A program made the position numbers and the translations under genes. A stretch of DNA of 64,000 nucleotides from an uncultured Actinomycetes bacterium (GTDB lineage Bacteria; Actinomycetota; Acidimicrobiia; IMCC26256; JACDBD01): positions 102,684 through 166,683 of the forward strand of contig CAVYIP010000008.1 of assembly GCA_963768605.1 (NCBI GenBank). The letters are read 5' to 3'. Numbering within the stretch: the first letter of the stretch is position 1; each line of letters starts with the position of its first letter. Shown here in pieces: positions 32,286 to 61,848 of the stretch. The notes beneath the pieces were generated by a model. The model was not told where the DNA came from and made no database searches. It saw only the letters and a program-made list of their open reading frames with translations.

Positions 32286-33293
32286 TCATGCGGCGTTGGC
32301 CAGGCAGCGGATCGTGCCGTCGCGTAGGCCGTAGTAGACGAGGGTGAGGACTTTGCGAGCGATCGCGACGGTCGCCTTGTTCTTGCCGCGCCGCTCGGCG
32401 ATCTTGCGGTAGTCGGCTGCGAGTTTGCCGCCGCCGTGATAGCGGACGGTGCCTTCGACGACAGCCCAACGCACGAGCCGCGATCCTTGCTTGGTGAGTT
32501 GCCCTCGGTGCACGGTGGTGTCGGACTCTTTGTGTTTGGGCGTGAGCCCGGCCCACGAACACAACGCGGCCGCCGATCGGAAGCGGGTGACGTCGCCGAT
32601 CTCGGCCACCAAGATCGCGGCCATGGTCGGGCCGATCCCGTTGATTGTTTGGATCGCCCGATAGCCGACATGGCCGCGCAGGCGGCTGCGGATCTGCGCC
32701 TCGAGCATCGTCACCTCACGGTCGTAGAGCTCGATCAGATGGCGGAGTGATTCCACTCGGATCGCGTATGCGTCACCGAGCTGCAAGTCGTCGAGTTGCG
32801 CGTTGCCGGCCTGACAGAACATGTCGGACACCGAAGGCAGCACACCCGCTTTGGCCATCACCGCATGCACTTGCGCCTTGAGCCCGGACCGCAACGCGAC
32901 CAGCTTCGCCCGATAGCGCACCAGCTCGCGGAGCTCACGCGTCGCCGGCGGCGCGATCCACGCCTCCGGCAACCGACCGAGCCGGAGCATGTCGATCAGA
33001 TCGATCGCGTCACGTTCGTCGTTCTTCACGCGGCGTGTGCCCCAGTTCAACCCCGACGGGTTCGCTAGATGCACAGTCGCGCCCTGCTCCCGCAGCCAAT
33101 CGACGATCCAATACCAGCCATAGGTCGCTTCGATCACGACCTCGGGGCTCGGACCCGCCTCCGCGACCACCGCCGCGATCGCCAAGGGATCATTAGGCAC
33201 GCGCACCGAGCTCAACTTCTCGCCCGCGCTGTTCTTCCGGACGATCACTGACCGTCGACGATGAAAGTCGATCCCGACATACTGTCGACCCAT
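32286..33293 (-). mobile_element. IS110-family transposase gene (element ends not delimited)
   Basis: ATG 33293 (MGRQYVGIDFH), 335 aa uninterrupted. DEDD-type N-domain and C-terminal IQTINGIGPTMAA...LTPKHKESDTTVHRGQLTKQGS are typical of IS110. Flanked by ~220- and ~290-bp non-coding stretches. Confidence 0.9.
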
Positions 33294-33512
33294 AGGGGCC
33301 TCCCTTCCTCCGAAGAGGAACACGTGTGTGAAGCACCGAGTCTGAACCGACTCGGACCTCACGGGGAGCGGAGGCCCCGCTCCTTCATCGCATCAGTTCT
33401 GAGCGACTGAAGAGAAGGCGTCGGAGGTCTCGGAACAACGGGAACACGGCGAGGGCGAAGTACACGGGCGGAGCGTGAGCCGGTAGCGGCCGCCCTCGAT
33501 CCGGTCTAAGAA

Positions 33513-48802: not shown

Positions 48803-48910
48803 GGTGTCCTCCGCGGTCTCGTCTCGTGTGCTCGCGGGCTCCCTGGGGAGCCTGTCAGCTGAGACGATTCAAGGTGCCGAGACTCATCGGCGACAAGCCC
48901 GGGCACAGGA

Positions 48911-48937
48911 AGGCCCCGGACTGCTTGTCCGGGGCCT
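48911..48937 (-). terminator. 10-bp-stem hairpin just downstream of the orphan tRNA 3' fragment
   Basis: aggccccgga-ctgcttg-tccggggcct. Positioned as the original tRNA trailer terminator. Confidence 0.5.
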
Positions 48938-48938
48938 C

Positions 48939-48998
48939 TGACCTGCGCTTCGTTGGTGGCGGGGGAAGGATTTGAACCTTCGACCTTCGGGTTATGAG
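48939..48998. repeat. 60-bp direct repeat (attL-like): orphan 3' 45 nt of tRNA-fMet plus 15-nt trailer
   Basis: Identical base-for-base to 61757-61816. Contains the CCA end to the anticodon loop but no 5' half. Confidence 0.9.
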
Positions 48999-49117
48999 AT
49001 CGCGCAGCGAGTGAACGAGAGTTGGCGCAAGTTCGCGTTAGTGCTGCTCGGGGTCACACTTGGTATAGCCGGAAGGCACGATTTGGACGCAAGTTGCGCT
49101 CCGTTTCCCAGAGTTGG

Positions 49118-49139
49118 GCTGACATCGCGCTGACATCGG
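49118..49139. repeat. tandem 11-bp repeat GCTGACATCG[C/G] x2 (candidate recombinase arm-type sites)
   Basis: gctgacatcgc gctgacatcgg, 120 bp inside the left repeat. A third copy lies at 61707-61717 in the same orientation. Confidence 0.45.
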
Positions 49140-49211
49140 ATATCCCGCGAATCGATCAGCGGAGAGGTTGTCCGGGACCCTTCCGTCAGCCGATTCACAC
49201 GGCCAGAGCGG

Positions 49212-49598
49212 TTAGCTGACCGGACCGAGACGGGCCTCTCGCCGCGCCCAGCGCTCGTGCCTGTGCTCTGCGAGCGGCGAAGGATTATCGCCGGTCCAGG
49301 CTGATAGAGGCACCGAGACCGCGAGGAAGCTGTCACGGAATCGGCCGTACCCGCTGGCGACGTCGACTGGCCCGCGGAGTCCCTCGCGAGCTTCGTCAGG
49401 CACGCAACAGAATGCCTTGTCGAGGTAGCGCTCGTACTCGAGGTCGAGTTCGGATCCGGTCTGTCCGAGATCGGCGATCTTGCACTTGAGGGCTTGAACT
49501 TCGTCCGCGAGTTCGTCCATAGCCTCGAGAACTTGGGTCGGGATGATCTTGTCAAGGTCGAGCCACGCCGGGATTTCAGGCGCGCTTGTGCTGGCCAT
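49212..49598 (-). CDS. hypothetical protein (island)
   Basis: ATG 49598 preceded by GGGAAGGAA. 128 aa, MASTSAPEIPAWLDLDKIIPTQVLEAMDELADEVQALK... No family recognised. Confidence 0.5.
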   Translation of the reverse strand: MASTSAPEIPAWLDLDKIIPTQVLEAMDELADEVQALKCKIADLGQTGSELDLEYERYLDKAFCCVPDEAREGLRGPVDVASGYGRFRDSFLAVSVPLSAWTGDNPSPLAEHRHERWARREARLGPVS

Positions 49599-49916
49599 GG
49601 AGGTTCCTTCCCTAGGACGCCTTCCGGGTTCGGCAGGCTGCCGCCAATGCACGTGCTGGCACTCCGTGAATGAAACGATCGCGCGCCGCACGGCGCTCTC
49701 GGTGGATTTCGCGTCTTGGTGCAGCCCGCGAGGTTGCCCGCGAGTGACCGTGTTTGACCGTGCCGAGTGGTGCAGCCGTGGTGCAAGGCAACGGTCCGTT
49801 CCTCCGCGGAGGTTGTTGCCGAAGAGCCGCCACTTGATCCCGGACGAGGCTCTCGAGGTGCTGAGGAAGCTTCTCGAGGCCCTCCGCGAGGTGAGGGATC
49901 TACGGCGTCGGATTGG

Positions 49917-50183
49917 CTAGCCGGACACCCATTCTCGAACTACGGCCCATCGGTAGCGGCGATGACCGCCGACTGTGCGCACCGACGGCAATCCACTCTG
50001 GGTTGGCCAGCGCCAGACCGTCTTCGGCGTGACGTTCAATAGCCACGCGACTTCGCTAGAGGAGAGCAGCGCCTCAAGCGCGGACCCGTAGGGAACCGTC
50101 TCGTGCGGCGCCCTGTCGGAAGGGTGACGGGCCGCGGGCTCGGTCGCCCATTCCGATGACCGGCTTTCTGGACTGGCCCTCAT
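49917..50183 (-). CDS. xis: excisionase-family helix-turn-helix DNA-binding protein
   Basis: C-terminal LLSSSEVAWLLNVTPKTVWRWPTQSGLPSVRTVGGHRRYRWAVVREWV matches the excisionase/MerR-like HTH pattern. Start may be internal. Confidence 0.7.
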   Translation of the reverse strand: MRASPESRSSEWATEPAARHPSDRAPHETVPYGSALEALLSSSEVAWLLNVTPKTVWRWPTQSGLPSVRTVGGHRRYRWAVVREWVSG

Positions 50184-50292
50184 GTGTCAGACGTCACCCG
50201 ATGTCCGTGTCGCGCGTCATGGAGCACTGGGGCAGCAGACGCATGATCGGCAGGCCATCCGAGGGAACCGCCAACGGGGCCCTCGGAGAAAA

Positions 50293-50344
50293 GGGGAAGG
50301 CGGGAGCCCAACTCCGCAAGGACCGGGGGGCTCCCGCCTTCCCC
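50293..50344 (-). terminator. perfect 17-bp-stem hairpin followed by TTTTCTCC on the minus strand
   Basis: ggggaaggcgggagccc - 18-nt loop - gggctcccgccttcccc. Followed by a T-run on the minus strand. Lies between a small membrane-protein gene and xis. Confidence 0.6.
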
Positions 50345-50646
50345 GTCGGTCAGTCTCAGGCCCGCCACCACCGCCGCCAGCTACCGCAGAAAGTGTTATC
50401 GGCTTCGGACTGGCCAGGCAGTGGGCGGCGCACATCAATGACGGTGATCGGACGCGCACAGATGTGCCGATATGGCGCGCCTGGCGGCTCTCATCTGCCG
50501 ACGTTCTGTGCGCCGTTCGGTGCGCGGAGGCCAGGCGCAGATCGGCAGTTCTGGGTGCCTATGACGAGGCGGCACCCAGACCTAAAGCAGCGTCGCTTTA
50601 TCCACGAAGCGGAGCCGATCGCTCGCCCCACTGGCCACGGTCCGAT

Positions 50647-50968
50647 TCACCGTGCGAAGCGGATCTTCAACTGGAGGTTCGCCTCCGAAAGCTGCGAGCT
50701 GTTGTCGTTCACCGGGATCACGCAACGGGGATGGTCGGCGTCGCCGATGGCGTTCCCGACCGGCGTGTTCGAAGGCGTCGTCCGGGATCAACAAGCGAGC
50801 CACTGCCCCAGCGACCAGGCCGAGGACGAGGGGTAAAGCGCGGGTTCGCGGCCCAGAGGCGGGCGCGGTGGGCCGGGCGCTGCCCCTCCGAACGTGCGCC
50901 GGTCTGTGGCGATGTTGGGTGTTAGCGGCCCGCGGCGCGGTAAGCCTCCATGCCGTCGCGGGGGTCAA
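50647..50968 (-). pseudogene. small membrane-anchored hypothetical protein (probably frame-disrupted)
   Basis: TM segment ALPLVLGLVAGAVARLLIPDD. After one switch (~50760) it reads VGNAIGDADHPRCVIPVNDNSSQLSEANLQLKIRFAR-stop. Start uncertain. Confidence 0.3.
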
Positions 50969-51233
50969 TCCACCGTTCCGTCACCGTCTGGCGGGCCATG
51001 TCGGCCAGGTGGAAGATCGCCCTGTTCATCTCCGGCTTCGGAGGTGCATCGAACACCTGCGCCGACTCGGCCTCGGCAAGGACAGCGACCTCGTCGGGGT
51101 TCGTCCAGAAGAACCGGCAGTCGGTGACCCCCGGCGTCGCCCGCTGTTCGCGGCAAAAAACAAACGCTGCGTTGCCCAACTCCTCCCGGTCGGTGCCTTC
51201 GCGACGTTCCCATTTCGTGAGCATGATGGCCAT
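50922..51233 (-). CDS. hypothetical small protein (island)
   Basis: 103-aa uninterrupted ORF, MAIMLTKWERREGTDREELGNAAFVFCREQRATPGVTDCRFFW... No family recognised. Confidence 0.5.
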   Translation of the reverse strand: MAIMLTKWERREGTDREELGNAAFVFCREQRATPGVTDCRFFWTNPDEVAVLAEAESAQVFDAPPKPEMNRAIFHLADMARQTVTERWIDPRDGMEAYRAAGR

Positions 51234-51320
51234 GACATCTCCTAGGGGTTCTCGCTAACCGTTAGCGACTACGCCCTTGGGATATTCCTCCGCAACTCAA
51301 CAAGCAAGAGTGCGTGCCAG

Positions 51321-51749
51321 TCAATCCGAACTGATCAAGAGGGACAGGCTCGGTATGTCGAAGCCCTCGAGGACGACGCCGTCCGCGAGCCGGTACACGA
51401 CAACGCTGCTTCCCTGATGGCGAACGTCGCCAATGGTCATTTCGACCTCGAGATGTGCGACGACGAGGTCCTCGCCGACGGGCCAAATATCTACGGCACG
51501 CTTGTTGAAGGTCCCATCCGTGAGATCGTCGAGCATCCTGGGCCAGTCCTTCAGGACCTTGTCTTTGCCCTCGAAGTGCGTCACGAGTTCGGGATGCGGA
51601 GACTGGAAGTGCCAAACGATGTTGTCAGCAAGTGCATCGGGGTCTGAATCCAATGCCTTGCGGATGAGCTCAACGTTGCCTCGCTGTGTTGACGTCACCC
51701 GAACAGATTGCCTGTTCTGGCGCCCGGGGCGCGCACACAGAATCATCAC
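51321..51749 (-). CDS. NTF2/SnoaL-like protein
   Basis: GNVELIRKALDSDPDALADNIVWHF...VVVYRLADGVVLEGFD is typical of SnoaL-like proteins. True start is probably internal (~51700). Confidence 0.6.
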   Translation of the reverse strand: MMILCARPGRQNRQSVRVTSTQRGNVELIRKALDSDPDALADNIVWHFQSPHPELVTHFEGKDKVLKDWPRMLDDLTDGTFNKRAVDIWPVGEDLVVAHLEVEMTIGDVRHQGSSVVVYRLADGVVLEGFDIPSLSLLISSD

Positions 51750-51868
51750 GACCTCGCCCGACAGGTGTGGGACGTCGAGGGGGTGAACACCGACTCCTCG
51801 GCGTTTCGAAAATCCGAGGCCCGAATCGCTCTATCCCCCCGAGTCTCGCCGCTCTAGGTTCTGGCGCC

Positions 51869-52072
51869 ATGTGGACCGGTGTCGTCTGGCGTGAAGCCGG
51901 GAACTACGGGCCCGGAGGGATGTTCGAGCCGAGGCAGAACCTGGGAAGCCACACATTCCCCCACGACCCCGAAGTCGGCTTCGTTCTCGAAATCAACGAC
52001 GAGCAGTACCAAGTCACAGAGGTCTATCTCGGGTTCTGTCACGTCCGCCCGACGAGGATGAAGCCGTCGTGA
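51869..52072 (+). CDS. hypothetical small protein
   Basis: 67 aa from ATG 51869. Third-codon positions are mostly G/C, unlike the overlapping minus-strand ORF. No family recognised. Confidence 0.3.
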   Translation: MWTGVVWREAGNYGPGGMFEPRQNLGSHTFPHDPEVGFVLEINDEQYQVTEVYLGFCHVRPTRMKPS

Positions 52073-52320
52073 GCGTCACCCGGACCCGCTCGGTGCTCTA
52101 CTCCCTCGCCCGTCCGGCCGCACAGCTTAACCAGTCCTTTATCGGTTTGGTCACATTCCCGAACGTGCCCGAGGGTAGGCTAACGAGGCCGAGCGGGCTG
52201 GTGAGTTGACGCGTCGGAAGTTCGCGCACGCAACGGTCAAGGCCGGCCTTGCCGCGAGCGCAGCAGTCTGGGTTGCACCGGCGACTCGGAACCCCAGGGG
52301 GCGTCTTCGTGCGAACCGAA

Positions 52321-52369
52321 CACGGAAGGCGGGAGGCCCGTGCGCAATGACCTCCCGCCTTCCCGTGTC
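52321..52369 (-). terminator. long hairpin whose stem is related to the 50293 hairpin
   Basis: acacggaaggcgggagg - 14-nt loop - cctcccgccttcccgtgt (one bulge). Shares the core GGAAGGCGGGAG with the 50293-50344 stem. Lies ~115 nt downstream of the 52486 stop. Confidence 0.4.
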
Positions 52370-52485
52370 CGTGCGCTTCGAGGGCCCACTGCTGGGGGCG
52401 ATGCCCTCGAAGGTAGGGATCCTCGCAACCACAGCTTAAAAGGCAGTAAAGGCCCGTCCGATGTGGTGCAGATGTGTTTGTAGCT

Positions 52486-52961
52486 CAGCGCTTGAGCTGG
52501 CGCACGAGCCTGTGGTCTCGGTCCTTCTTCCACCGTCTGCCGTCGGCATCGGTGAAAAACAGCTCCACTGACATTGACTTCGATCCCTCGCGTGCTCTTG
52601 AGGTACGTCAACCCTCAGATAGCACGCAACTTCGCTGCGGGGCGGTAGTGACGCCGCCGCCGGCATCGTGTCGCCCAAGAGCTGACCAAACTCGTCGTAC
52701 ACCCTGACGAACAGCCCGTGGATTGTTTCGTCGCTGGCGTTATGGACTACCGGCCGCGTAACCACGGTGACCTTGCCTCACGATGGCGATATCTCCGTTC
52801 CGTTCGCCTCGACCCACGCCAGTCGGGCCTGCCGCATCTCCTGATCGGCCGCTTGGGCGCGCCGTTATGTTGATTTCCCACAGCAAGAGCGCAAACGTGA
52901 CGGCGAACGCCAGCACCGTTCCAATCGCTGCGACCCAGGCGGGGACAGTGCCCCAATCCAC
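52486..52961 (-). pseudogene. membrane-anchored hypothetical protein (frame-disrupted)
   Basis: MDWGTVPAWVAAIGTVLAFAVTFALLLWEIN, then segments in other frames: QAADQEMRQARLAWVEANG, VVTRPVVHNASDETIHGLFVRVYDEFG, SVELFFTDADGRRWKKDRDHRLVRQLKR-stop (52486-52488). Confidence 0.4.
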
Positions 52962-53017
52962 GGTCGAACGCTAGCCCTCGCCAACAGATCGAAGCTCGGC
53001 GAGCAGCTCCGCGGCGG

Positions 53018-53281
53018 TCAGCCCACACCGTTCGCCAAGCGCCGCTCTTGTCCACTGGTACCACCCCACACGCCGTGCGCCTTCTGGCCGAGTTCGAACG
53101 CAGCGTCCAAGCAGTCGCACCGGACCGGGCAGCGGCGGCAGTAGGACAGCGGCTCTTCCTGCGAGGCGCCCCGGTCGGGCAGGAACACCTCGGGATCGGC
53201 GCCGGCGCACGCAGCGCGCAGCCGCCAGCGTTGGTCGGCGAACGCGTATCCGGCTTCGAGCGCGAGCTCGATCAGCGACAC
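53018..53281 (-). CDS. whiB: WhiB-like (Wbl) Fe-S transcription factor
   Basis: 87 aa. AACAGADPEVFLP...YCRRCPVRCDCL...GVWGGTS is the Wbl four-Cys and GVWGG pattern. Confidence 0.8.
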   Translation of the reverse strand: MSLIELALEAGYAFADQRWRLRAACAGADPEVFLPDRGASQEEPLSYCRRCPVRCDCLDAAFELGQKAHGVWGGTSGQERRLANGVG

Positions 53282-54053
53282 ATGTGGGCGGTTCCGGCGT
53301 CGCTGCCGCGGCCATCAGCGGTGACCGTACCGACGCGTGCGCGAGCGCAGGCGGATGCTCCAAGCGGCATGCCGGATGCCGACTCCCCGACGCTCCATTA
53401 GGGTCCGGCCGGTCCGCCGGGTGCACCACGAGGTTGTCCGCGAGGCGGACGCGGACAGGGCGCGGGCGGGCGCGCTCGGCGGACCCAAACCAGACCTCAC
53501 GCCACTTGCTTCGGGCTGCGTCGGCCCGCGCTAGACGCGGGAGGCGAGAGAACCGGTCGTGTTTGTGGTCTCCCGCCTCCCAGTTCTCCCGTCGCGGAGT
53601 CCCATTCCCAGCTTGGGGGGCGGAGAGGACTCCCTCGGGAGTTATCCACATTGTCCGCGCAGAAACACCCCCAGTGGTCAAGCGCCCACCGTCCGACGCA
53701 TGAGAGATGTGAGCGGGTCCTAGGGCTGCGGGTGAGCGTGGCCCCGCTCGCGGGGTCCCCAGCCAGCCGAGATTGCGATCGTGCTAGGTCGGGTTCTCTA
53801 CGAGGAGGGCTCCCACTTCTCCTGCAGGATGTACAAAGCCTCCACCGGGGAGAGTCCCGACCGCGACGACCGCCGACGCGGGGCGCGGCCCCGCGACTCG
53901 ATCAACATTCCGTCCCGTTTTGCAGGTGCCGGTACGCGACGACAGTTTCGACGCCGGCGGCTCGAGCGAGCGACTCGGCGGCGGCCAGCCCGCGTTTGAC
54001 GTATGCAACCCGTAGTCTTGCGGAGCGAGACGTCGTCCCAAGAGGGCGCCGCG

Positions 54054-54832
54054 ATGAATATGGCCGATGCGCGGATCGCGGTCGATGAGGCAACCAAGCG
54101 CTTCGCGGCGCTTGTGCGCTCTTCGCCAAATCCCCGATGCGCATCCGCCACTCCGACTGGACGATCGCCGACGTGGCGGCGCACGTTCTGAGCTTCGCGG
54201 AAGCCTACGAGGGATACCTACAAGACGATGCGGATCCCGTCGTTCGCGTGCACGATCTAAACCTCGACAACGCGCGCAACCTCGCTCGCTTGGACGAGCG
54301 CGACATTGGCATCCTCACCGACCGGCTGGCCCGTGCCAGCGCCGCTTTCCTGGCGGCAAGCGACGGCCTCGACGCGACTCATCCGATGCGGTGGCACGAC
54401 GTGTCCGCCACCGTCGGCACCGTCTACGGGATCTACCTGGGTGAGCTGCTGATCCACGGCGACGACGTGGCTCGAACGCTGCGGCGGCCCTGGCCCATCA
54501 CCCGAACACAGGGCGCGATCGTCCTCGAGGCCATCGCCGAGGCGGCCCCCTGGTTCGTCGACGCTCGCGGCGCGGTTCGCGACGCCGAATTCGAGGTCAA
54601 CGCTCGCAAAGGTCCCACATTCAGCTTCCGCTTTGCCTCCACTTCCCTGACCGTCGAAGCCGGTCGGGCGACCCGCCCCGACTGCCGCATCTGGGGCGAC
54701 GCCGTCGCGCTCGTGCTGGTGCTGTACAAGCGGCGCTCACAATGGACCCAGATCGCTCGGGGTCGCTTGATTGCCGGCGGGCGACGACCATGGCTTGCCC
54801 TATCGTTCGTCGACCGGTTCGGCGGCTACTGA
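54054..54832 (+). pseudogene. DinB-fold, mycothiol-dependent maleylpyruvate isomerase family protein (TIGR03083-like; frame-disrupted)
   Basis: ATG 54054 (MNMADARIAVDEATKRFAALV). Switch near ~54130 into the 231-aa frame (WTIADVAAHVL...), with an SCP2-like C-terminal part. Confidence 0.65.
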
Positions 54833-55353
54833 CGCGGCGAGCGCGGCGGCACCCATACGTGCCGTTCGGTGCGCGCCAACTCCGGCCGCTAGCGGCGTTC
54901 TGGGCGTGGTTCTGTGCTCGTGAAGGGACGGATCAAGAGAGCCGAGCGCGCAGCTTCCGCCAGCGCCACGGGAGATCCAAGGCCTCGAAGATCAAGATGA
55001 TCGACAACCAGAACAGCACTCGGGGCAGCGGGTGTTGGAGGAAACTCATGAGCTTGCCCATGCTCCTCTACATTTCGTTCGCTAGCTCCGCAATCATGGA
55101 AGCCCAAGCCAACCGCCCTCCGCAACACGGCGGGAGATGAGGATGCCTCAGGGCAGGCTGAGCACGGTCACAGCGAGGCATCCGCCGAATTGACCATCGC
55201 ACGCGTACGCGTCGAGCGGGCTCCACCCGCGCTTCGCGGTAAGACGTTCGACGTTCGTGTGATGGCGCGTCTCCAATCGGTACCGCGTAAGGGAACCGGT
55301 CCGGAGTTCGCAGCGCATGGCCCGATCGAAAAGCGCTACGTCGAAGCAAGCCC

Positions 55354-55584
55354 TCAGCCGTGTTCGACGCGCTCAAGATCAAGGTCATGGAAGGTCGGCG
55401 GCCCGTCAGCGCGCTCCATCATCCGTTCGTGGGAGAAGGCCTGCGTCTCGGGCAGCTCGTCGTTCTTCTTCGCGCCTTTGTAGGACGGGAACTCGGCGAT
55501 CAGGACGTACTGCCACGCGTGATCGCGGTCCTGGCAGACCATGACCCGTCGTGTCACGGCCTGCCCTCCGTCTTCGCACACCAT
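55354..55584 (-). CDS. hypothetical small protein (possibly longer, starting at ATG 55649 with one frame switch)
   Basis: 76-aa ORF, VMVCQDRDHAWQYVLIAEFPSYKGAKKNDELPETQAFSHERMMERADGPPTFHDLDLERVEHG. No family recognised. Confidence 0.4.
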   Translation of the reverse strand: MVCEDGGQAVTRRVMVCQDRDHAWQYVLIAEFPSYKGAKKNDELPETQAFSHERMMERADGPPTFHDLDLERVEHG

Positions 55585-55657
55585 TGGTTAGCCGCGGGGA
55601 GGCTCCCGAGCGATGTGGGCGACGTGAACCCCTTCAGCCATCGTTCGGCGCGAGCGG

Positions 55658-56741
55658 CTATGCGGTAAGGCGCCGGAAGGGCCGCTTGGAGGGAGGGTCC
55701 ACAAGACCTCGTTGGCTTGGGCCTCGCTCACGGCGCGTGCGGCCAGGTTCACCACCGGCCCGAAGCAGTCGCCGCCTTGGACAAAAACATCGCCGAAGGC
55801 GAGCCCGGCCCGAATCGGCGGGAGAACGGGATGAGCCCGGAACGGTCGGCAAGCTCAAGGGCGATTCCGCAGGCCGCGTCGATGCTTGCAGCCACGAACA
55901 TGATTTCGTCGCCGATGAGCTTGACGACCCGCCCGCCCGCGGCGACGACCACATCAGAGGCTGTCGTCTCGAACTCACCGAGGGCAGCACCGAGGCCAGC
56001 GATATCGACCTGTTCGGAGAGCGCCGTCGAGCCGACGAGGTCGACGGAGCCGACGACGAGACACTGCGTCTCGTAGCCGAACTTGACGTCGGGCGAAGTA
56101 CGGGACGCTGCCACCAGGTGCATCCGCAGGAGCTGGTCCATGGCCGACACCAGGAAAGGCATGTATGAAGCCGACTCCAAGTTGGCGCGGACCAGGGCGA
56201 GACCGTCCTCGGATCGGAAGCCATGGCTTCCGGGCCCACGTTGGTGACAAAGGCCGAGACGATCGTGTCGGCCACTTTGGCCATCGCCGTGCCCACGACC
56301 CTGGTGAGCTGGAACGCGGTGTCCTCGCCGAAGAGTGAGACCGCGGCGCCGAAGCCCTGAAAGACAGCGGTGTCAGCCTCGGTGGCGATCGGGAGATCGG
56401 GCCCGGGATCAGCGAAGCCAGCCGTAGCCACAGCCGCCGGACCGTCTCTTCTTGCAGGCCGGCTCGTTCGGCAAGTTCGCGCCTCGTCAGATCTCCGCCA
56501 CCAGGCCGCAGGGCGAGGCGGGCGGCAAGCGCGCCATAATCAGGCAGTTCCGCCCGCAAGTCGTCCAGCGCCCGCCGTGCTGGACCAGGAGCTCAAGCGC
56601 AGCAAGGCGTTCCGTAGCGCCAGGAGCACCGGGGTCGTAGACGCCCGCCTCATGCAGATCCTCCGGAGTGATCTGCCCTGCACTGTCGCTAGGCACGGCA
56701 TCAACGTAGCTGCGGCGCGGAGCACGGCAGAGGCCGGCCAC
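55658..56741 (-). pseudogene. class III adenylate/guanylate cyclase with helical/HTH-like N-terminal region (frame-disrupted)
   Basis: Catalytic-domain pieces VVGSVDLVGSTALSE, GGRVVKLIGDEIMFV, GLAFGDVFVQGGDCFGPVVNLAARA spread over three frames. N-region reads GVYDPGAPGATERLAALELL...LTRRELAERAGL. Ends approximate. Confidence 0.6.
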
Positions 56742-57093
56742 GACAGCGGTGCCGATATGGCGCGCACGGTGACGCCCATCGGGTGACGTTCGGTAGGCGC
56801 GTTGGGTGCGCTCGGGTGATGGCGAACGAAATCGCAGGCAATACGACGTCTGTCAGAGGCTGCCGCCGAACCCGCCGCGGCGCAAGAGGTGCTGAGGGCG
56901 CTGCGCTAACTCCGGTCGTCATCCAAGGCACGGATCACAGGTCTGTGACGCCGCTCGGCGGCAATCGTCAGCTTGGCGCGACGAGCCACGAACAAACTCG
57001 CTCTGATGCGGTAATACGCACCGCCAGTGAAATGTGCGGACCGCGGTCGTGCCCGGCCGCCCGCCGGGCTCGATTCGTGTGTGCGCTCGGCTC

Positions 57094-57732
57094 TTACGCC
57101 AGGCGGCGGTAGATCAGCTGCGTCGTCGCACTCGGGTCGTCGGCGTACACGCCAGCGACTCCCTTGTCGACGAACTTCACCCAATCCTCGTCGGACCCCA
57201 GCGCTTGTTCGGACGCCTCGAGCGCTTGTGCGTTCTCGTGACCGGTGATCCATCCGACGCTGCCGTAGGTGCCGCTCACGTTGGCGAGGAACAACGTCGG
57301 GGAGCCGATGAGCTTCGCAGCCTTCTTCGCCAGCTCGACGCCGAGCTCCATGCCGCGACCGAGGTTGCCGTTCGCGTAGACCGTCTGGACCGCCGTCACG
57401 TACTCGATCTGCCGGGTGGGGTCTGGTTCGCCGTGGACCACCTGTGCAAGAAGGTCGTCCGCACCACCGACCGTGTACTTACTGCCCTTGTCGACAGCGG
57501 TCGCGAACGTGTCGTCGGCGTTCAACTTGTCGCCGGCTGCCTCGAGGGTGGCGAGATCCGGTACGAAGGTGCTCCAAGCAATTGCACCGACCTCCGGCGA
57601 GTAAACCTGCATGAACAGACTCACCTGCAGACCGGTGATGTTGTTGACGCTCTTGGTCTGGTCGAGCGCCCATTCCATGGATGAGCGCGTGTTGCCGGGT
57701 CCCAAACGGAGCCGGCGGCTGAACAGGTACAT
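57094..57732 (-). CDS. hypothetical protein (island)
   Basis: ATG 57732 (MYLFSRRLRLGPGNTRSSMEWALD), 212 aa uninterrupted. Two similar halves suggest a duplicated alpha+beta module. No family recognised. Confidence 0.55.
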   Translation of the reverse strand: MYLFSRRLRLGPGNTRSSMEWALDQTKSVNNITGLQVSLFMQVYSPEVGAIAWSTFVPDLATLEAAGDKLNADDTFATAVDKGSKYTVGGADDLLAQVVHGEPDPTRQIEYVTAVQTVYANGNLGRGMELGVELAKKAAKLIGSPTLFLANVSGTYGSVGWITGHENAQALEASEQALGSDEDWVKFVDKGVAGVYADDPSATTQLIYRRLA

Positions 57733-57849
57733 GACCGCCCCAATCTGCCCCGGACTCACCGAGTCCGAACGAGGCCTCCGCCCGGGGAAGTGAACAAGAA
57801 AGGCCCCGCTCAGTGAGGCTGCCAGCACGACGGCGCGAGCGCAAGGGAC

Positions 57850-58281
57850 CTACAGCCCTTCCGTAGTCGAGCCGGGGACGCTGCACATCGACCGCAGGTG
57901 AGTGCCCGATGAGGCGTTTCCCCTTCGCCTAGCGGTAGCCACCGCGATGTGCACAGTCGACTGCCGATGATCGCGCCCGAACGGCACGTACGTGTCCACG
58001 CCGATCTTCGGTTCGCGAAGACGGAGGAAGCGCACCGCGAGTCCTTTGGGGCAGCCGTCGCAGATCCGAGCGCGTCTCGGGCTTCGAGCGCAAGGCCCCG
58101 AACCCCCGTCCTTGCTGGCGCAACCGGCGCGAAGAAGAACAAAGCCGCCGTAGCTGGGACGTATTGGGGCTGTTCGCGAACGTCGGCCAGCCGTCGTTAG
58201 TAGACCCACCGAACCGCACATAACCGGCGTTCTGGGCGTCGAGCGCCACGAGCGCATATGTGCCGTTCGGTGCTCCTCATC
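57850..58281 (-). pseudogene. Cys-rich hypothetical protein (frame-disrupted)
   Basis: ATG 58281 after AGGAG. Segments ALVALDAQNAGYVRFGGSTNDGWPTF and GCASKDGGSGPCARSPRRARICDGCPKG (C-x10-C-x9-C-x2-C) lie in different frames. Confidence 0.3.
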
Positions 58282-58418
58282 TGCTCCTGGAGATGGATGT
58301 TCGGTGTGCACGTTATGGCGCGTTCGAAAGGCGTTCTCGAACGCCGCTCTGGTCTGCGGTTGCCGCGGGCACGACCGGCTCGTTGCCGGCCGCGCTTCGC
58401 GACAGCCGCGCGGGTGCG

Positions 58419-58962
58419 CTAGTAGCCAGGGGAACCGCTCGAGCCACCGCTACCGCCAGAGGTCGACGGCGTGCTGGTGATCTCGTTCCCTGTGGGTGAG
58501 AGCACGTACCAGAGGCCGCCGAAGGCATTGACGCCCTGGCCGTTGGTGTTCCCGGCCTTCTTGTCGCCCGAGTACGTGTAGAGCGGGTGGCCGTTGTAGA
58601 TGACCTGCGGCTTCCCGTCGGACCGCGTCGCGGTGCTGGCGAGGGAGGCTTTCGCGCCCTTCCCGATCTTCGGTGTGGCGCTCGTGAGCGGCGGCCACGC
58701 GGCTGCGCAGGCGTCGGCGCACGCGCTGGTCGTCCCTGAGTCCGCCTGGAACAGGTACAGAGTGCGGCCCTTCGAGTTGACGAGGATCTTCCCGAGGTTG
58801 GTCTTCGCGGACGCGAACCGTCGCTGGCTTTGCCTTCGTGGCTTCTTGTTTCGCCGCCGACACGCTCGCGGAGCTCACGCCGCCATAGCCGGCGACAGCC
58901 AGCGCGGCGAGCGGCACGATTGCCGCCCGGGCAAAGAAGGTGGTGCATCTGCTGCGAGTCAT
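58419..58962 (-). pseudogene. secreted lipoprotein of the COG4315 (Lipoprotein_15 repeat) type (frame-disrupted)
   Basis: Signal peptide MTRSRCTTFFARAAIVPLAALAVAG. After a switch near ~58815 it reads KTNLGKILVNSKGRTLYLFQADSG...DGKPQVIYNGHPLYTYSGDKKAGNTNGQG. Confidence 0.7.
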
Positions 58963-59111
58963 CCTCGCTCCTTTTCGTTTGGGGGACGGAATGGATATCC
59001 AGGTCCTACATGGCTGCGTTCTGAACATCAGATCGAGCTGTGGTCGCAGGTGCTTCGACCTGCGACCACAGCGCCTCTTCGAGCCGAGCACAGGTGCGTG
59101 CGGGGTTCTTC

Positions 59112-59668
59112 TCAGGGGCTGAAGTGCACCGCTCCGGTTGCGCAGCCGACGCCCTGCACCCAGACGTTTTGGACGCCCGTAAGAGTGCTATCGATGTCGT
59201 GCGCCGAGACGATCATGTTGGCTTGGAACGACTCGTCGGTTCCGTCGCCGGCTCGGTAGAAGTCGGCGTGCAGCACGACGGTGTCGTCGCTGGTGCTCAC
59301 GGTGCTTGGCGACCGCCTCGGTCGCCACGCACTTGAACGTCTGTGCTCGGCAGGAGAATGTCGCTGTCCCAGCGGACGCCCTCTCCCGTCTGACATCCGG
59401 CGAGCAAGCGCGTGGGCGGCCACCCACCGGTGAGGTGCAGCTGAAGCTGCCTCCGGAGTGGGCGGGATGGGTGGTGGAGGAGTTGAAGGCGCCGCCGCCG
59501 GTCAGGGTGACCGCGCCGGAGGTTCGTTGAGCCCGGTGATGTCGCGTGCGTTGAAACGCGAAGCTCGTGTTGGGACCGGCCGCACCAGCCGCGGACGCCC
59601 CGAGCACCACGATCGGGACCGCGGCGGCGAACACGGCGAACGCACCCAACCGTTTCAGCGAATCTCAT
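59112..59668 (-). pseudogene. secreted hypothetical protein (frame-disrupted)
   Basis: ATG 59668. Signal-like LGAFAVFAAAVPIVVLGASAAGAAG. C-terminal frame reads TVVLHADFYRAGDGTDESFQANMIVSAHDIDSTLTGVQNVW. At least 3 switches. Confidence 0.45.
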
Positions 59669-59807
59669 GGAGATCCCTCGTCGAGTACACGGAATGCGAA
59701 TCATGACAACGCTCCTTCTCTTTGATGGCTTTCTGAGCCCGAGACGACCTGGGCGGACCTTTTCGTATGGCGGTGTATCGTTACACTGCCATGCTAAACT
59801 AGCGAGA

Positions 59808-59833
59808 TAGATTACGCAAGGGGCTGTAATCTA
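59808..59833. promoter_or_regulatory. perfect inverted repeat TAGATTAC-N10-GTAATCTA upstream of the island TetR gene
   Basis: 8-bp arms (9 with the flanking A/T), 24 nt upstream of GTG 59857. A second imperfect IR, ggcggtgta-tcgt-tacactgcc, lies at 59771-59792. Confidence 0.55.
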
Positions 59834-59856
59834 TTTGTCCGGTCGAGGAGGCCGCC

Positions 59857-60495
59857 GTGGCGACCAAGGATCGAGCCGCTGGGGACACCGACGGCGCGTC
59901 CCGAGGCCCGGGTCGACCCCGCGACGCCCGCCACGACCAAGCCATCCTCGACGCGACGCTGGGGATCCTGCTGGAACAGGGCTACCGGGGCGTCACCATC
60001 GAGGGTGTCGCAACCCGCGCCGGGGTCGGCCGGCCCACCATCTACCGCCGATGGCCTTCGAAGCCCGCAGTCGTCGTCGCGGCGCTCGTCCAGTCGGACC
60101 GGCTGGCCCTCCCAGCGCCGGACACGGGTTCGTTGCGAAACGACTTGATCGCCGTGCAACGCCATCAGGTCGAGCGGATGAACTCGCCCGACGCTCGCCG
60201 GGTCACGGCCGGGCTGATCGCGGATCTGGCCGACGACCCGGAGCTTGCCGACACCTATGTCAGCCAATTCCTGGCGCCGCGCCGGGCAACGGTATGGGAA
60301 GTCCTCTCACGCGGTGTCGACCGAGGAGAGCTCGACGCCGACGTCGATTTCGCCTTCATTTACGACCTGCTGGTCGGGCCGCTCTTCATGCGAGCCGTCG
60401 TATGGGGACAGCCGCTAGCGCCCGACGCCGCCGAAAAAACCGCAGACGTGATCCTGGCCGCATTCGCCCCAACCCCCAGGCGCTCACCCACCTGA
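59857..60495 (+). CDS. TetR-family transcriptional regulator (island)
   Basis: GTG start, 212 aa uninterrupted. HTH YRGVTIEGVATRAGVGRPTIYRRWPSK. Confidence 0.85.
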   Translation: MATKDRAAGDTDGASRGPGRPRDARHDQAILDATLGILLEQGYRGVTIEGVATRAGVGRPTIYRRWPSKPAVVVAALVQSDRLALPAPDTGSLRNDLIAVQRHQVERMNSPDARRVTAGLIADLADDPELADTYVSQFLAPRRATVWEVLSRGVDRGELDADVDFAFIYDLLVGPLFMRAVVWGQPLAPDAAEKTADVILAAFAPTPRRSPT

Positions 60496-60743
60496 CCGCC
60501 AACCGCAAGGCTTAGGGGCGGCCCGGGAGCCGGTGGACGAATCGCCGAGGCGACGGTTACGGCCGTGGTTCCCCGTCGCTTCAGTGCTGGTCGCGACGCC
60601 CACGGTGTGCCCCTCATCCGCACACAACGACACCTCCCGGTCACCACCTCGCAGCGCCATAACCGGCGATATGCACGGCGTGCGGTGTCGGGATGTCGTC
60701 GTACTTGACTGGCCCAGCTTGGGCCGCCGGGTTGTCGCTGCAC

Positions 60744-61326
60744 CTAGAGCTTGGACGGGAAGGTGAGGGTGCCGACCGCCTTGCTGGCGAACTTGGTGTG
60801 GGCGGTGCCGGTTGCGGGGTCGACCTTGACCGTGGTCGTCGTCGCGGTGGCGGTGAGGACGCCGGTGACGCCGGCGAAGTGTCCGGTGCCGCCGGTGAAG
60901 GTGTAGGTCGCGGGGTACCGGTTGGCGTGCGTGATGGCATCAGATGGTGATGGGTCCGGTATGAATCCCTCGGCGACGGTGCCGGTGAGATTGTCGCCGT
61001 GGGAGTCCGTGTAGGTGAAGGTCCAGACTGAGGTGGGCGCCGTCGAGGCTGGGTTGGCTGAGCGTGTAGGTGCCGTGACCGAGGTGTTTGGCGGTCCAGG
61101 TCCAGCATCCCATCCGCACCGGGACGTCGGGCGGAGCCGGACACTTGGTACCGCGAGGGTTATTCAGCAGGTTGTTTTGCGCGTCCTCGTATTCGTCCCC
61201 GGACAGGTGGATGACGGTGCGGTAGGTGTGTGGCCGCGAAGGCGCGTGCGGTGGGGCGGCGGCGGACGCGGGCCCGCCGATCGCGGCGAAGCTGCTCAGC
61301 GCGAGGAAGATCGTGAGTCTTCGCAT
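60744..61326 (-). pseudogene. secreted beta-rich hypothetical protein (frame-disrupted)
   Basis: ATG 61326. Signal peptide MRRLTIFLALSSFAAIGGPASAAA. After a switch near ~61010 it reads WTFTYTDSHGDNLTGTVAEGF...YTFTGGTGHFAGVTGVLTA...LTFPSKL-stop. Confidence 0.55.
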
Positions 61327-61706
61327 ATGAAACTCCGGGCCTCGGCGGTCATCCGTCCGGCGCGACAGAGCCACTCATAAAGCGCCGCTGTCAAGGGCAC
61401 GCCGATGTGCCGATCAGTGCGCGCCAACTCTCGCCGCCAACGTCGTTCTGGCGCGACATTCTGTGCGCCACTTGGTCGATGAGTTAGCCGAAAGGCTAGC
61501 CCACACATCGAACACTTGTTCGTATTCGTCACGTCACACATCAACGAAGCTGGGGGCAGTACGAGGCGCGGTTGCGCGCAATGCCTCCGCAGATCGCGTG
61601 GTCAGCGCTCGATCCCGGGGGCGAGAAGCTCGACGAGCCGACTCGTCGACAACTCCTGCCTACCGACGGGGTGTGTCCATCTCAGCGACCCCGGTGGTGA
61701 CAATCC

Positions 61707-61717
61707 GCTGACATCGG
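61707..61717. repeat. third copy of GCTGACATCGG, 40 bp inside the right repeat
   Basis: Same 11-mer and orientation as the tandem pair at 49118-49139. Confidence 0.4.
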
Positions 61718-61756
61718 CGACCGCACAACGGGCCGGCCCTCGGAGGCCGGCCCGTG

Positions 61757-61848
<92 letters not shown>

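What the first reader, a model, noticed from the sequence alone, without database searches (positions are those of the whole stretch)
48999..50183. The tRNA-integrated island has an Xis-like gene and arm-type repeats but no recognisable integrase
tRNA-integrating elements normally carry a tyrosine or serine recombinase next to one att site. Here the 918 bp between the left repeat and the excisionase-like gene hold only a 128-aa unrelated ORF with its own Shine-Dalgarno. I read all six frames of 49.0-61.7 kb, allowing for frame switches, and found no R...HxxR...Y or serine-recombinase pattern. An 11-bp motif GCTGACATCG[C/G] is tandemly duplicated 120 bp inside the left end (49118-49139) and recurs 40 bp inside the right end (61707-61717) in the same orientation. 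This resembles arm-type recombinase or Xis binding sites. There are three options. The element could be a helper-dependent satellite using an integrase encoded elsewhere. One of the hypothetical proteins could be a non-canonical recombinase. Or the element could be a decayed remnant.
Basis: partly seen in the sequence, partly recalled or inferred. Interest (0 to 1): 0.65.

Follow-up and report, generated by a model that had tools for sequence, protein, structure and literature searches.

The report
Decayed integrase-less island at tRNA-Met
A 12.8-kb stretch of foreign DNA sits beside a methionine tRNA gene between two perfect 60-base repeats but no longer carries the enzyme that inserted it, which is a common fate of such islands.

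Summary
A tRNA-Met gene (61772-61848, minus strand) and a perfect 60-bp copy of its 3' end (48939-48998) bracket a 12.8-kb, lower-GC island. I scanned every stop-to-stop segment of at least 40 aa in all six frames, one by one, against Pfam and (segments of at least 60 aa) PHROGs. No integrase, resolvase, transposase, relaxase or replication protein was found. An unfiltered HMM of 120 actinobacterial integrases also found nothing, although it recovered 48- to 118-aa integrase fragments in related contigs. The "Xis-like" gene matches BldC, a transcription regulator, better than it matches excisionases. The 128-aa ORF is a real gene (dN/dS 0.16-0.46), an all-helical orphan and not a plausible recombinase. 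The 11-mer occurs only at the two island ends, but two random 200-nt stretches share a 12-mer 3% of the time, and one relative has a single unit where the window has two. At least three island genes are pseudogenes. The left-end module recurs in seven related contigs from metagenomes and one MAG. Their tRNA fragments are intact, decayed or truncated, and none has an integrase in the sequence held. The best reading is a decayed integrative element that kept its att sites (CIME-like). Mobilisation in trans remains possible. This is ordinary biology and of low interest.

The parts
61772..61848 (-). Intact tRNA-Met (CAT). It has initiator-type features: a C1 x C72 mismatch and three G:C pairs in the anticodon stem.
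   Evidence: ARAGORN; Rfam tRNA 65.6 bits. The initiator features were read from the sequence and are an inference.
61757..61816 (-). Right (tRNA-proximal) copy of the 60-bp att core
48939..48998 (-). Left copy of the 60-bp att core: a displaced 3' fragment of the tRNA plus 15 nt
   Evidence: It is conserved but variously decayed in L026, L028, L029, L030 and L031.
48999..61756 (.). The island: 12,758 bp, lower GC, mosaic cargo, no recombinase
49118..49139 (+). Left-arm bipartite 22-nt element GCTGACATCGC|GCTGACATCGG, 119 nt from the core
   Evidence: Both units are present in L026, the second unit is altered in L028/L029, and L030 has a single unit.
61696..61717 (+). Right-arm bipartite element GGTGACAATCC|GCTGACATCGG, 39 nt from the core
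   Evidence: It resembles GCTGACAATCT|GCTGACATCGA at the 3' end of the integrase gene in L024.
48912..48936 (.). Hairpin just outside the left core, probably the original tRNA terminator
   Evidence: Read from the sequence. The stem is conserved in L026.
61730..61753 (.). Hairpin inside the island next to the tRNA, probably a terminator supplied by the element
   Evidence: Read from the sequence
49212..49598 (-). orf128: a conserved all-helical orphan protein sitting where an integrase gene would be expected
   Evidence: 20 homologs at E <= 0.001, of which 17 near full-length ones are 69-100% identical. dN/dS 0.16-0.46. No Pfam, NCBIfam or PHROG hit. AlphaFold2 model pLDDT 61, five helices, no PDB fold match. 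Only 11 representative clusters among 1.84 billion proteins.
49917..50183 (-).
   Evidence: HTH_17 E 1.1e-7. NCBIfam HTH_BldC E 1.7e-14 against 'excise' E 7.4e-6. PDB 6AMA/6AMK (BldC) E 2e-11. phrog_66 E 2.5e-6.
50922..51233 (-). Hypothetical 103-aa gene
   Evidence: Coding-type GC3 of 0.83. No family hit.
51321..51749 (-). Hypothetical 142-aa gene
52206..52439 (+). Truncated small gene with a Tat-type signal peptide. Its 5' region (52113-52280) is 93-95% identical to L001 and L006-L009.
53018..53281 (-). WhiB-family regulator
   Evidence: Pfam Whib E 1.4e-17
54137..54832 (+). Mycothiol maleylpyruvate isomerase / DinB-type protein
   Evidence: MDMPI_N E 2.7e-11; TIGR03083
55591..56372 (-). Class III adenylate/guanylate cyclase pseudogene, frameshifted near 55840
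   Evidence: tblastn with the L001 cyclase splits into two frames; the two segments are shown
57094..57828 (-). Hypothetical 244-aa gene
   Evidence: GC3 0.82. No hit in Pfam, NCBIfam or PDB sequences.
58422..58874 (-). Lipoprotein_15 (secreted repeat) pseudogene. The reading frame has no start codon and no signal peptide.
   Evidence: Pfam E 7.8e-33 for one member of A2. The segment was identified. No ORF is listed ending at 58419.
59857..60495 (+). TetR-family regulator
   Evidence: TetR_N E 8.8e-13 and TetR_C_11 E 1.2e-31
60940..61374 (-). Hypothetical 144-aa protein, probably secreted

Best explanation
The segment 48999-61756 is the remnant of a site-specific integrative element. A tyrosine-integrase-type recombination between the element's attP and the 3' end of the tRNA-Met gene inserted it. 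That event rebuilt the tRNA at the right junction and left the displaced 60-bp fragment at the left junction. The element has since lost its integrase and any replication or transfer genes. Its interior has been reshuffled into a mosaic of small regulator and cargo genes (BldC-like wHTH, WhiB, TetR, MDMPI) and pseudogenes. What remains of the recombination apparatus is DNA only: the two att cores and possibly paired 11-bp protein-binding sites in both arms. By structure it is a CIME-type element, with attL and attR kept and the integration and transfer genes gone. It cannot move by itself. Shown: the repeats, the absence of any recombinase, the pseudogenes, and the recurrence of the left-end module as a relic in relatives. 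Inferred: the original integrase-mediated insertion, the loss by deletion, and any function of the 11-mers.
For: (1) The repeats have the geometry of tRNA-targeted integration, with a GC dip. (2) No recombinase was found. All 211 six-frame segments of at least 40 aa were scanned singly against Pfam, and the 150 of at least 60 aa also against PHROGs. They hit only Lipoprotein_15, TetR, WhiB, MDMPI and HTH_17/MerR, and all positive controls were recovered. An unfiltered 120-sequence integrase HMM gives a best E of 0.39 anywhere in the 64 kb. The same HMM detects the L006/L007 fragments at 1e-12 to 1e-14 and a 48-aa tail at 1e-8. (3) Decay is visible: a frameshifted cyclase, a Lipoprotein_15 gene without a start, and a truncated Tat-signal gene. 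(4) The left-end module (core fragment, arm, orf128, with or without the BldC-like gene) recurs at 91-95% identity in L026-L032. L002 shares only orf128, at 86%. The flanks differ in every case. The core fragment is intact-length in L026, carries indels in L028/L029, and is cut to about 17 nt in L030 and 31 nt in L031. No integrase is present in any of the sequence held. (5) Islands carrying homologs of the wHTH gene show the expected ancestry. L006/L007 lie next to tRNA-Pro and carry a 70-118-aa integrase fragment. One JGI contig carries a full 372-aa integrase about 5.6 kb from the homolog. (6) Elements that lost their integration genes but kept attL/attR are a described class, the CIMEs (PMC5704250).
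Against: The left core is 60/60 identical to the tRNA. Neutral divergence from the nearest relatives is dS about 0.10, which predicts about 3 changes in a drifting fragment, so P(0) is about 0.05. The L026 fragment differs from the window's within the tRNA part only by two fully compensated T-stem pairs. A dead fragment should not do that. Both points suggest the att copies are renewed, by recombination or by gene conversion, so the element may not be completely inert. Only 64 kb of the genome was visible. The relatives are short metagenome contigs.
Confidence: 0.6

Rival explanations
1. The island is a still-mobile, helper-dependent element: a CIME or satellite used in trans. Its att cores and the paired GCTGACA(T/A)TCG sites in both arms remain functional. 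They would be recognised by a tyrosine integrase with an N-terminal arm-binding domain encoded by another element in the same genome. The island's BldC/Xis-type wHTH protein would act as the directionality or architectural factor.
For: The 60-bp repeat is perfect even though dS to relatives is about 0.10. L026 shows compensatory T-stem changes. Both arms carry a bipartite 22-nt element in the same orientation. L022, an Actinomycetota MAG, has the tandem motif 71 nt downstream of a tRNA-Met on the opposite strand, which is the geometry of the window's right arm. L024 has the same bipartite element at the 3' end of, and 560 bp upstream of, an integrase with Arm-DNA-bind_4 plus Phage_integrase domains. 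The orf128 and wHTH genes are under purifying selection and travel together with the arm.
Against: No helper integrase is present in the 64 kb. The motif sharing between the arms has P of only about 0.03. The tandem is a single unit in L030. Most of the 16 tandem-motif hits in GTDB genomes lie next to housekeeping genes, and 9 of 16 are perfect 11-bp duplications, as expected from slippage. In most relatives the core is decayed or truncated. Gene conversion could explain the perfect repeat. No excision junction was found: the metagenome scan for the left arm joined to the core gave 0 hits.
Confidence: 0.25
2. One of the island's hypothetical proteins is a non-canonical recombinase that carries out integration and excision. 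The candidates are orf128, which sits in the position of an integrase gene, and the 244-aa, 142-aa, 103-aa and 144-aa ORFs.
For: orf128 lies between the wHTH gene and the att arm in the window, L026, L031 and L032. It is conserved and under selection. Five ORFs have no family assignment.
Against: The orf128 model is a small helical bundle with no match to any solved fold. The family has only 11 representative clusters among 1.84 billion proteins, and the confident matches (E <= 1e-4) are all proteins of 78-190 aa, none fused to a nuclease or recombinase domain. orf128 also occurs without any att site or wHTH gene in L002, and downstream of a cold-shock gene, with amtB and glnB further upstream, in L027/L028. 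No ORF matches any recombinase, transposase or nuclease profile. The 244-aa protein has no PDB sequence match.
Confidence: 0.04
3. The segment is not an integration product. The 60-bp repeat arose by local duplication or by gene conversion of a tRNA fragment within a hypervariable chromosomal region, and the content accumulated by other routes.
For: The flanks outside the left core differ in every relative. The interior is a mosaic sharing short blocks with unrelated contigs. A dispersed repeat family specific to the island could mediate rearrangements.
Against: The repeat begins in the T arm of the tRNA, runs through its 3' end and continues 15 nt downstream. That is the signature of tRNA-targeted site-specific integration. 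The element supplies its own hairpin after the rebuilt tRNA. Related islands carry integrase fragments next to tRNA-Pro.
Confidence: 0.08

Closest known systems
CIME (cis-mobilizable element) as defined for streptococcal ICE/IME derivatives (PMC5704250)
   Same: It is flanked by attL and attR derived from integration into the 3' end of a gene. [quoted passage not shown] In principle an incoming element with the same site specificity could mobilise it.
   Different: It comes from a high-GC actinobacterial (Gaiellaceae-like) MAG, not from Firmicutes. No partner ICE or IME is visible. Neither accretion nor mobilisation has been shown. The ancestry from a conjugative element is unknown.
Actinomycete integrative and conjugative elements of the pSAM2/SLP1 type (from my own knowledge)
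   Same: Integration is into the 3' end of a tRNA gene with a core of about 60 bp. A small wHTH gene reads towards the att site, which is the position of xis-int-attP.
   Different: There is no int, no rep, no FtsK-like tra, and no Nudix or kor genes. The space between the wHTH gene and the att site is 918 bp and is occupied by an unrelated 128-aa gene.
BldC, the MerR-like winged-HTH regulator of Streptomyces (PDB 6AMA/6AMK; PMC5859096)
   Same: The island's wHTH aligns with BldC at about 50% identity across the whole DNA-binding domain. This includes the PKTV.RW helix and the GGHRRYR wing. It is the best NCBIfam model. BldC binds direct repeats head to tail and is structurally like Xis.
   Different: The score of 53 bits is below NCBIfam's 77-bit cut-off. 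The protein has a 35-aa N-terminal extension. The BldC consensus AATTXXXX(C) with a 9-bp period does not match the 11-bp GCTGACATCG units. Its function here is untested.
Arm-type sites of lambda/L5-type attP, bound by the N-terminal domain of tyrosine integrases (from my own knowledge)
   Same: These are short direct repeats in both arms, within about 140 bp of the core, in one orientation and paired at a spacing of one helical turn. A similar pair sits at an integrase gene with an Arm-DNA-bind_4 domain in L024.
   Different: No cognate integrase is present. There are only two independent occurrences (P about 0.03). Copy number is polymorphic among relatives. Binding has not been tested.

Membership tests
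tRNA-integrated genomic island / integrative element | A direct repeat of the 3' end of a tRNA gene bounds the segment | tested here: met
   60/60 identity, 48939-48998 against 61757-61816
tRNA-integrated genomic island / integrative element | Composition differs from the flanks | tested here: met
   GC 0.61-0.70 inside against 0.70-0.73 outside. GC3 is lower in the island ORFs.
tRNA-integrated genomic island / integrative element | Encodes a site-specific recombinase (tyrosine or serine) | tested here: not met
   Six-frame scans against Pfam and PHROGs and an unfiltered integrase HMM found nothing
tRNA-integrated genomic island / integrative element | Encodes a recombination directionality factor (Xis) | tested here: inconclusive
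   A wHTH of the HTH_17 type is present. HTH_BldC scores 53 bits and 'excise' 26 bits, and both are below their curated cut-offs.
CIME (cis-mobilizable element) | attL and attR are retained | tested here: met
CIME (cis-mobilizable element) | Integration and transfer genes are lost | tested here: met
CIME (cis-mobilizable element) | Derived from an ICE or IME by decay | tested here: inconclusive
   Pseudogenes are present. Relatives carry integrase fragments or a full integrase. No conjugation remnant was found.
CIME (cis-mobilizable element) | Mobilised through accretion with, or integrase supplied by, another element | not testable with these tools
   This needs the whole genome, read-level junction data or an experiment
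AICE (pSAM2/SLP1-type) | int, xis, rep, FtsK-like tra, Nudix and kor modules | tested here: not met
   None of these families appears among the Pfam hits of all six-frame segments
Prophage or phage satellite | Integrase plus replication, packaging or structural genes | tested here: not met
   PHROGs hits are WhiB, phrog_66 and families of unknown function only. There is no match to phage records apart from the tRNA.
BldC family of regulators | A stand-alone MerR-like wHTH with the recognition helix and wing conserved | tested here: inconclusive
   E 2e-11 to 6AMA/6AMK with the PKTV.RW and GGHRRYR motifs conserved. NF033787 scores 53.4 bits against a cut-off of 77.
attP arm-type sites | Repeated short sites in both arms beyond what chance would give | tested here: inconclusive
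   3 exact copies against 0.18 expected, but P is about 0.03 for a shared 12-mer or longer between the arms. L030 has a single unit.
attP arm-type sites | Bound by the integrase N-terminal domain or by Xis | not testable with these tools
   This needs EMSA or footprinting

The most novel reading that the evidence does not exclude
A lineage of integrase-less islands in Gaiellaceae-like actinobacteria remains mobile. The conserved end module (att core, paired GCTGACA(T/A)TCG sites, orf128 and the BldC/Xis-type wHTH) would be a minimal cis-acting and accessory kit. It would let the island be excised and re-integrated at the initiator tRNA-Met gene by an arm-binding tyrosine integrase encoded elsewhere. 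That would explain the perfect repeat in the window and the compensated T-stem in L026.
Probability: 0.15. Interest if true: 0.45.

Novelty: new member of a known kind. Interest (0 to 1): 0.2.

Why it matters
This is an example, from a poorly studied actinobacterial lineage (Gaiellaceae-like), of how integrative elements decay into anchored islands that keep only their att DNA. It also shows that an HTH_17 'excisionase' call next to an att site can equally be a BldC-type regulator. If the trans-mobilisation reading were right, it would extend CIME-like hitch-hiking to this phylum and would tie a specific 11-bp site to a family of arm-binding integrases. As it stands, nothing here changes current understanding.

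Tried and rejected
(1) I joined each whole frame into one 4,300-aa pseudo-protein for Pfam. This missed the MDMPI control and was abandoned. It was replaced by per-segment scans through alignment ids.

(2) Exact-sequence look-ups of window proteins and of P0001 found nothing on record, so the source contig could not be walked.

(3) I scanned for the tandem 11-mer in GTDB genomes and found 16 hits. Most lie next to housekeeping genes (TGT, FAA hydrolase, NUDIX, PPIase, MacB), and 9 of 16 are perfect 11-bp duplications. The motif is therefore not a general mobile-element signature. Only L022 and L024 look related.

(4) The tandem motif in IMG/VR gave 0 hits.

(5) The left arm joined to the core in the metagenome collection gave 0 hits. 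The 28-nt arm stretch gave 1 hit, L030.

(6) tblastn with the L024 integrase and the L007 integrase fragment against the window found nothing. Weak hits near 31.5 and 34.7 kb led only to an IS110 transposase and ordinary genes.

(7) The 80 viral loci with integrases 29-41% identical to the L024 family come from hosts of about 43% GC and lack the motif, so they are uninformative.

(8) A fold search with the orf128 model found no significant match, and the model is of modest confidence.

(9) Plasmid and phage databases match only the tRNA part.

(10) Rfam found only the tRNA, plus hairpins that score as spurious miRNA matches.

(11) A Pfam scan of the rest of the window through alignment A6 was not run. 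The tool lists only the 25 most-matched families, so a single integrase hit could be hidden. The local HMM search covered this instead.
Full report
**The observation**

The window is about 70% G+C. Its only tRNA gene is a tRNA-Met(CAT) at 61772-61848 on the minus strand. The sequence has a C1 x C72 mismatch and three G:C pairs in the anticodon stem, so it looks like the initiator species. This is my reading and is an inference.

A perfect 60-bp direct repeat links 61757-61816 to 48939-48998. The right copy comprises the last 45 nt of the tRNA plus 15 nt downstream. There is no third copy in the window.

Between the repeats lie 12,758 bp with a GC content of 0.61-0.70. The flanks are at 0.70-0.73. 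The flanking genes are ordinary: DUF899 and a pyridine-nucleotide oxidoreductase on the left, an MDMPI-type protein and an FAD oxidase on the right. Each core copy is followed by a different hairpin. This fits an element that brought its own terminator for the rebuilt tRNA.

These are the 918-bp gap, the 128-aa ORF at 49212-49598, the HTH gene at 49917-50183, and the 11-mers at 49118, 49129 and 61707.

**Is there a recombinase?**

A first attempt joined whole frames into long pseudo-proteins. It missed a known control and was discarded.

I then cut all six frames of 48901-61800 at stop codons. Every one of the 211 segments of at least 40 aa was scanned on its own. Against Pfam, the only families found were Lipoprotein_15, TetR_N/TetR_C, WhiB, MDMPI_N/C and HTH_17/MerR, plus weak noise. 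No Phage_integrase, resolvase, large serine recombinase, rve/DDE, relaxase or Rep family appeared, and every positive control was recovered. Against PHROGs (the 150 segments of at least 60 aa), the hits were WhiB families, phrog_66 (excisionase and transcriptional regulator) and families of unknown function.

As an independent test I built an HMM from 120 integrases related to the one in L024. I ran it without filters on every segment of at least 25 aa across the whole 64 kb. The best E-value was 0.39. The same model scored the 118-aa integrase fragments of L006/L007 at 1e-12 to 1e-14 and a 48-aa C-terminal tail at 1e-8.

The island, and indeed the whole window, therefore holds no recognisable integrase or remnant of one. 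The only transposase in the window is an IS110-family gene at 32286-33362, outside the island.

**The 'Xis-like' gene**

The 88-aa product hits HTH_17 at E 1.1e-7. Its best curated model is NCBIfam HTH_BldC at E 1.7e-14 and 53 bits. The excisionase domain model scores E 7.4e-6 and 26 bits. Both are below their curated cut-offs.

Its best matches among solved structures are 6AMA and 6AMK at E 2e-11. Identity is about 50% across the winged HTH, with the recognition helix and wing conserved. Those entries are BldC-DNA complexes. BldC is a Streptomyces developmental regulator that binds direct repeats head to tail and is structurally similar to Xis (PMC5859096).

The gene therefore cannot be taken as evidence of a recombination module. 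It may be a regulator, an architectural factor, or both.

Its homologs in other contigs sit in small-gene mosaics (L001). In L006/L007 they lie next to tRNA-Pro, beside a decayed integrase fragment. In one JGI contig the homolog lies about 5.6 kb from a full 372-aa integrase, and that contig has a separate 63-aa HTH_17 gene close to the integrase, separated from it by a cI-like HTH_31 gene.

**The 128-aa ORF**

It is a real gene. It has 20 homologs at E <= 0.001, of which 17 near full-length ones are 69-100% identical and mostly share the start MASTSA. dN/dS against six relatives is 0.16-0.46.

It has no hit in Pfam, NCBIfam or PHROGs. The AlphaFold2 model is a five-helix bundle of modest confidence (pLDDT 61) with no significant PDB match. 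A profile search of 1.84 billion representative proteins found only 11 clusters; the confident matches (E <= 1e-4) are all proteins of 78-190 aa, and none is fused to another domain.

It also occurs away from any att site or wHTH gene. In L002 it stands alone. In L027/L028 it follows a cold-shock gene, with amtB and glnB further upstream.

Nothing suggests it is a recombinase.

**The 11-mer**

GCTGACATCGS has three perfect copies in 64 kb against 0.18 expected, and all three lie within 140 bp of the cores. Looked at more closely, both arms carry a bipartite 22-nt element in the same orientation. The left one is GCTGACATCGC|GCTGACATCGG and the right one is GGTGACAATCC|GCTGACATCGG.

The statistics are modest. 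Random pairs of 200-nt pieces of this window share a 12-mer or longer in 3% of trials. Relative L030 has one unit where the others have two, so the tandem may be a slippage polymorphism.

A scan of 185,579 species genomes for the tandem found 16 loci. Most lie beside housekeeping genes, and 9 of the 16 are perfect 11-bp duplications. Two are suggestive. L022, an Actinomycetota MAG, has the tandem 71 nt downstream of a tRNA-Met, after a hairpin and on the opposite strand. That matches the geometry of the window's right arm. L024, an Acidimicrobiia MAG, has GCTGACAATCT|GCTGACATCGA inside the 3' end of a tyrosine integrase gene with an Arm-DNA-bind_4 domain. It has a second tandem 560 bp upstream of that gene.

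The arm-site reading is therefore plausible but not established.

**Relatives of the left end**

Seven contigs share the left junction:

- L026 (a Gaiellaceae MAG) shares 48911-49936 at 93.5%.
- L031 shares 48968-50523 at 94.1%.
- L032 shares 49040-50290 at 95.0%.
- L028 and L029 share 48933-49738 at 91.4%.
- L027 shares 49208-49738 at 92.1%.
- L030 shares 48981-49757 at 92.1% and 50097-50479 at 88.0%.

In every case the DNA outside the module is different. None has an integrase in the sequence held.

The state of the core fragment varies. It is perfect in the window and carries indels in L028/L029. It is cut to about 17 nt in L030 and to 31 nt in L031. In L026 the tRNA-derived part differs from the window only by two fully compensated T-stem base pairs, GAAGG/CCTTC against GCGGG/CCCGC.

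The relic pattern argues for an old element without an integrase. The L026 pattern and the 60/60 identity in the window argue otherwise. About 3 changes would be expected at dS of about 0.10. Together they suggest the fragment is sometimes renewed from a functional tRNA, either by recombination through an integrase supplied in trans or by gene conversion.

**Island content**

The island carries regulators and small cargo: the BldC-like wHTH, WhiB, TetR and an MDMPI/DinB-type enzyme. It has five ORFs without any family assignment.

It also has at least three pseudogenes:

- a frameshifted class III cyclase;
- a Lipoprotein_15 gene whose frame has no start codon or signal peptide;
- a truncated Tat-signal gene.

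No known plasmid or phage shares anything but the tRNA.

**Verdict**

The most likely reading is a decayed integrative element that has kept attL and attR but lost its integrase. Structurally this is a CIME as defined in PMC5704250. I put this at about 0.6.

The alternative, that it is still moved in trans by an arm-binding integrase encoded elsewhere, is at about 0.25 and cannot be tested within 64 kb. A hidden non-canonical recombinase is unlikely (about 0.04). An origin without integration is also unlikely (about 0.08).

This is a new member of a known kind and of low interest. The third of the three offered options is the best supported. The labels 'Xis-like' and 'arm-type' should be softened.

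Noticed in passing
window 50458-50521, 54848-54915, 56743-56794, 58219-58282, 61396-61476: A dispersed repeat of about 65-80 nt has five copies, all on the + strand. In this 64-kb window it occurs only inside the island. Each copy holds 2-3 direct sub-motifs such as GTGCCGWTCGGTGCGC and CGTTCTGKGCG. Copies also occur in L001. The homology of L031 to the window ends exactly at the end of the first copy (50523). These could be operator sites (for example for the BldC-like protein, which in Streptomyces binds direct repeats), module boundaries, or a MITE-like element. They remain unexplained.
   Followed up: partly
window 52113-52280: A 170-nt stretch is 93-95% identical to L001 and L006-L009, which is higher than the surrounding genes. 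It covers the promoter and 5' end, including the Tat-type signal peptide (LTRRKFAH...), of a small secreted protein. The window's copy (52206-52439) is truncated after the signal peptide. In the other contigs the stretch lies about 300 nt downstream of the wHTH gene. In the window it lies 1.9 kb on the other side of that gene.
   Followed up: partly
window 50293-50344 and 52311-52376: Two related long hairpins share the stem GGAAGGCGGGAG, and one has a perfect 17-bp stem. Rfam scores them as spurious miRNA matches. A sequence of about 160 nt around the second hairpin recurs twice in each of L006-L008.
   Followed up: no
window 32286-33362 (-): An IS110-family transposase (DEDD_Tnp_IS110 plus Transposase_20) lies beside a low-GC patch at 33-35 kb. 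It is outside the island and apparently unrelated to it. A DUF4062 / STAND NTPase gene lies nearby at 29692-31014.
   Followed up: no
L024 1179-2429 (-): The integrase gene of this Acidimicrobiia MAG has an in-frame TAG after ...LGHSSV. Homologs cover the read-through C-terminus, so this is a pseudogene, a sequencing error, or a recoded stop. The last codons of the read-through frame are themselves the bipartite 11-mer element.
   Followed up: partly
L010 2460-3424: In a Sphingomonas genome, a tRNA-Ser is followed 7 nt later by one GCTGACATCG unit. About 850 bp further on lies the tandem pair, overlapping the stop codon of a 229-aa secreted-protein ORF. All units are in the tRNA's orientation. 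This may be chance or a tiny relic.
   Followed up: no
L026 941-1000 compared with window 48939-48998: The pseudo-tRNA fragment in the Gaiellaceae MAG differs from the window's, within the tRNA part, only by two compensated T-stem pairs. This implies it was copied from a functional tRNA of that lineage and did not simply drift.
   Followed up: partly
window 55591-56372 (-); also L001 6692-7531 and the JGI contig of P0006: Class III adenylate/guanylate cyclase genes recur in these island-like mosaics. The gene is intact in L001 and in the P0006 contig and frameshifted in the window.
   Followed up: no
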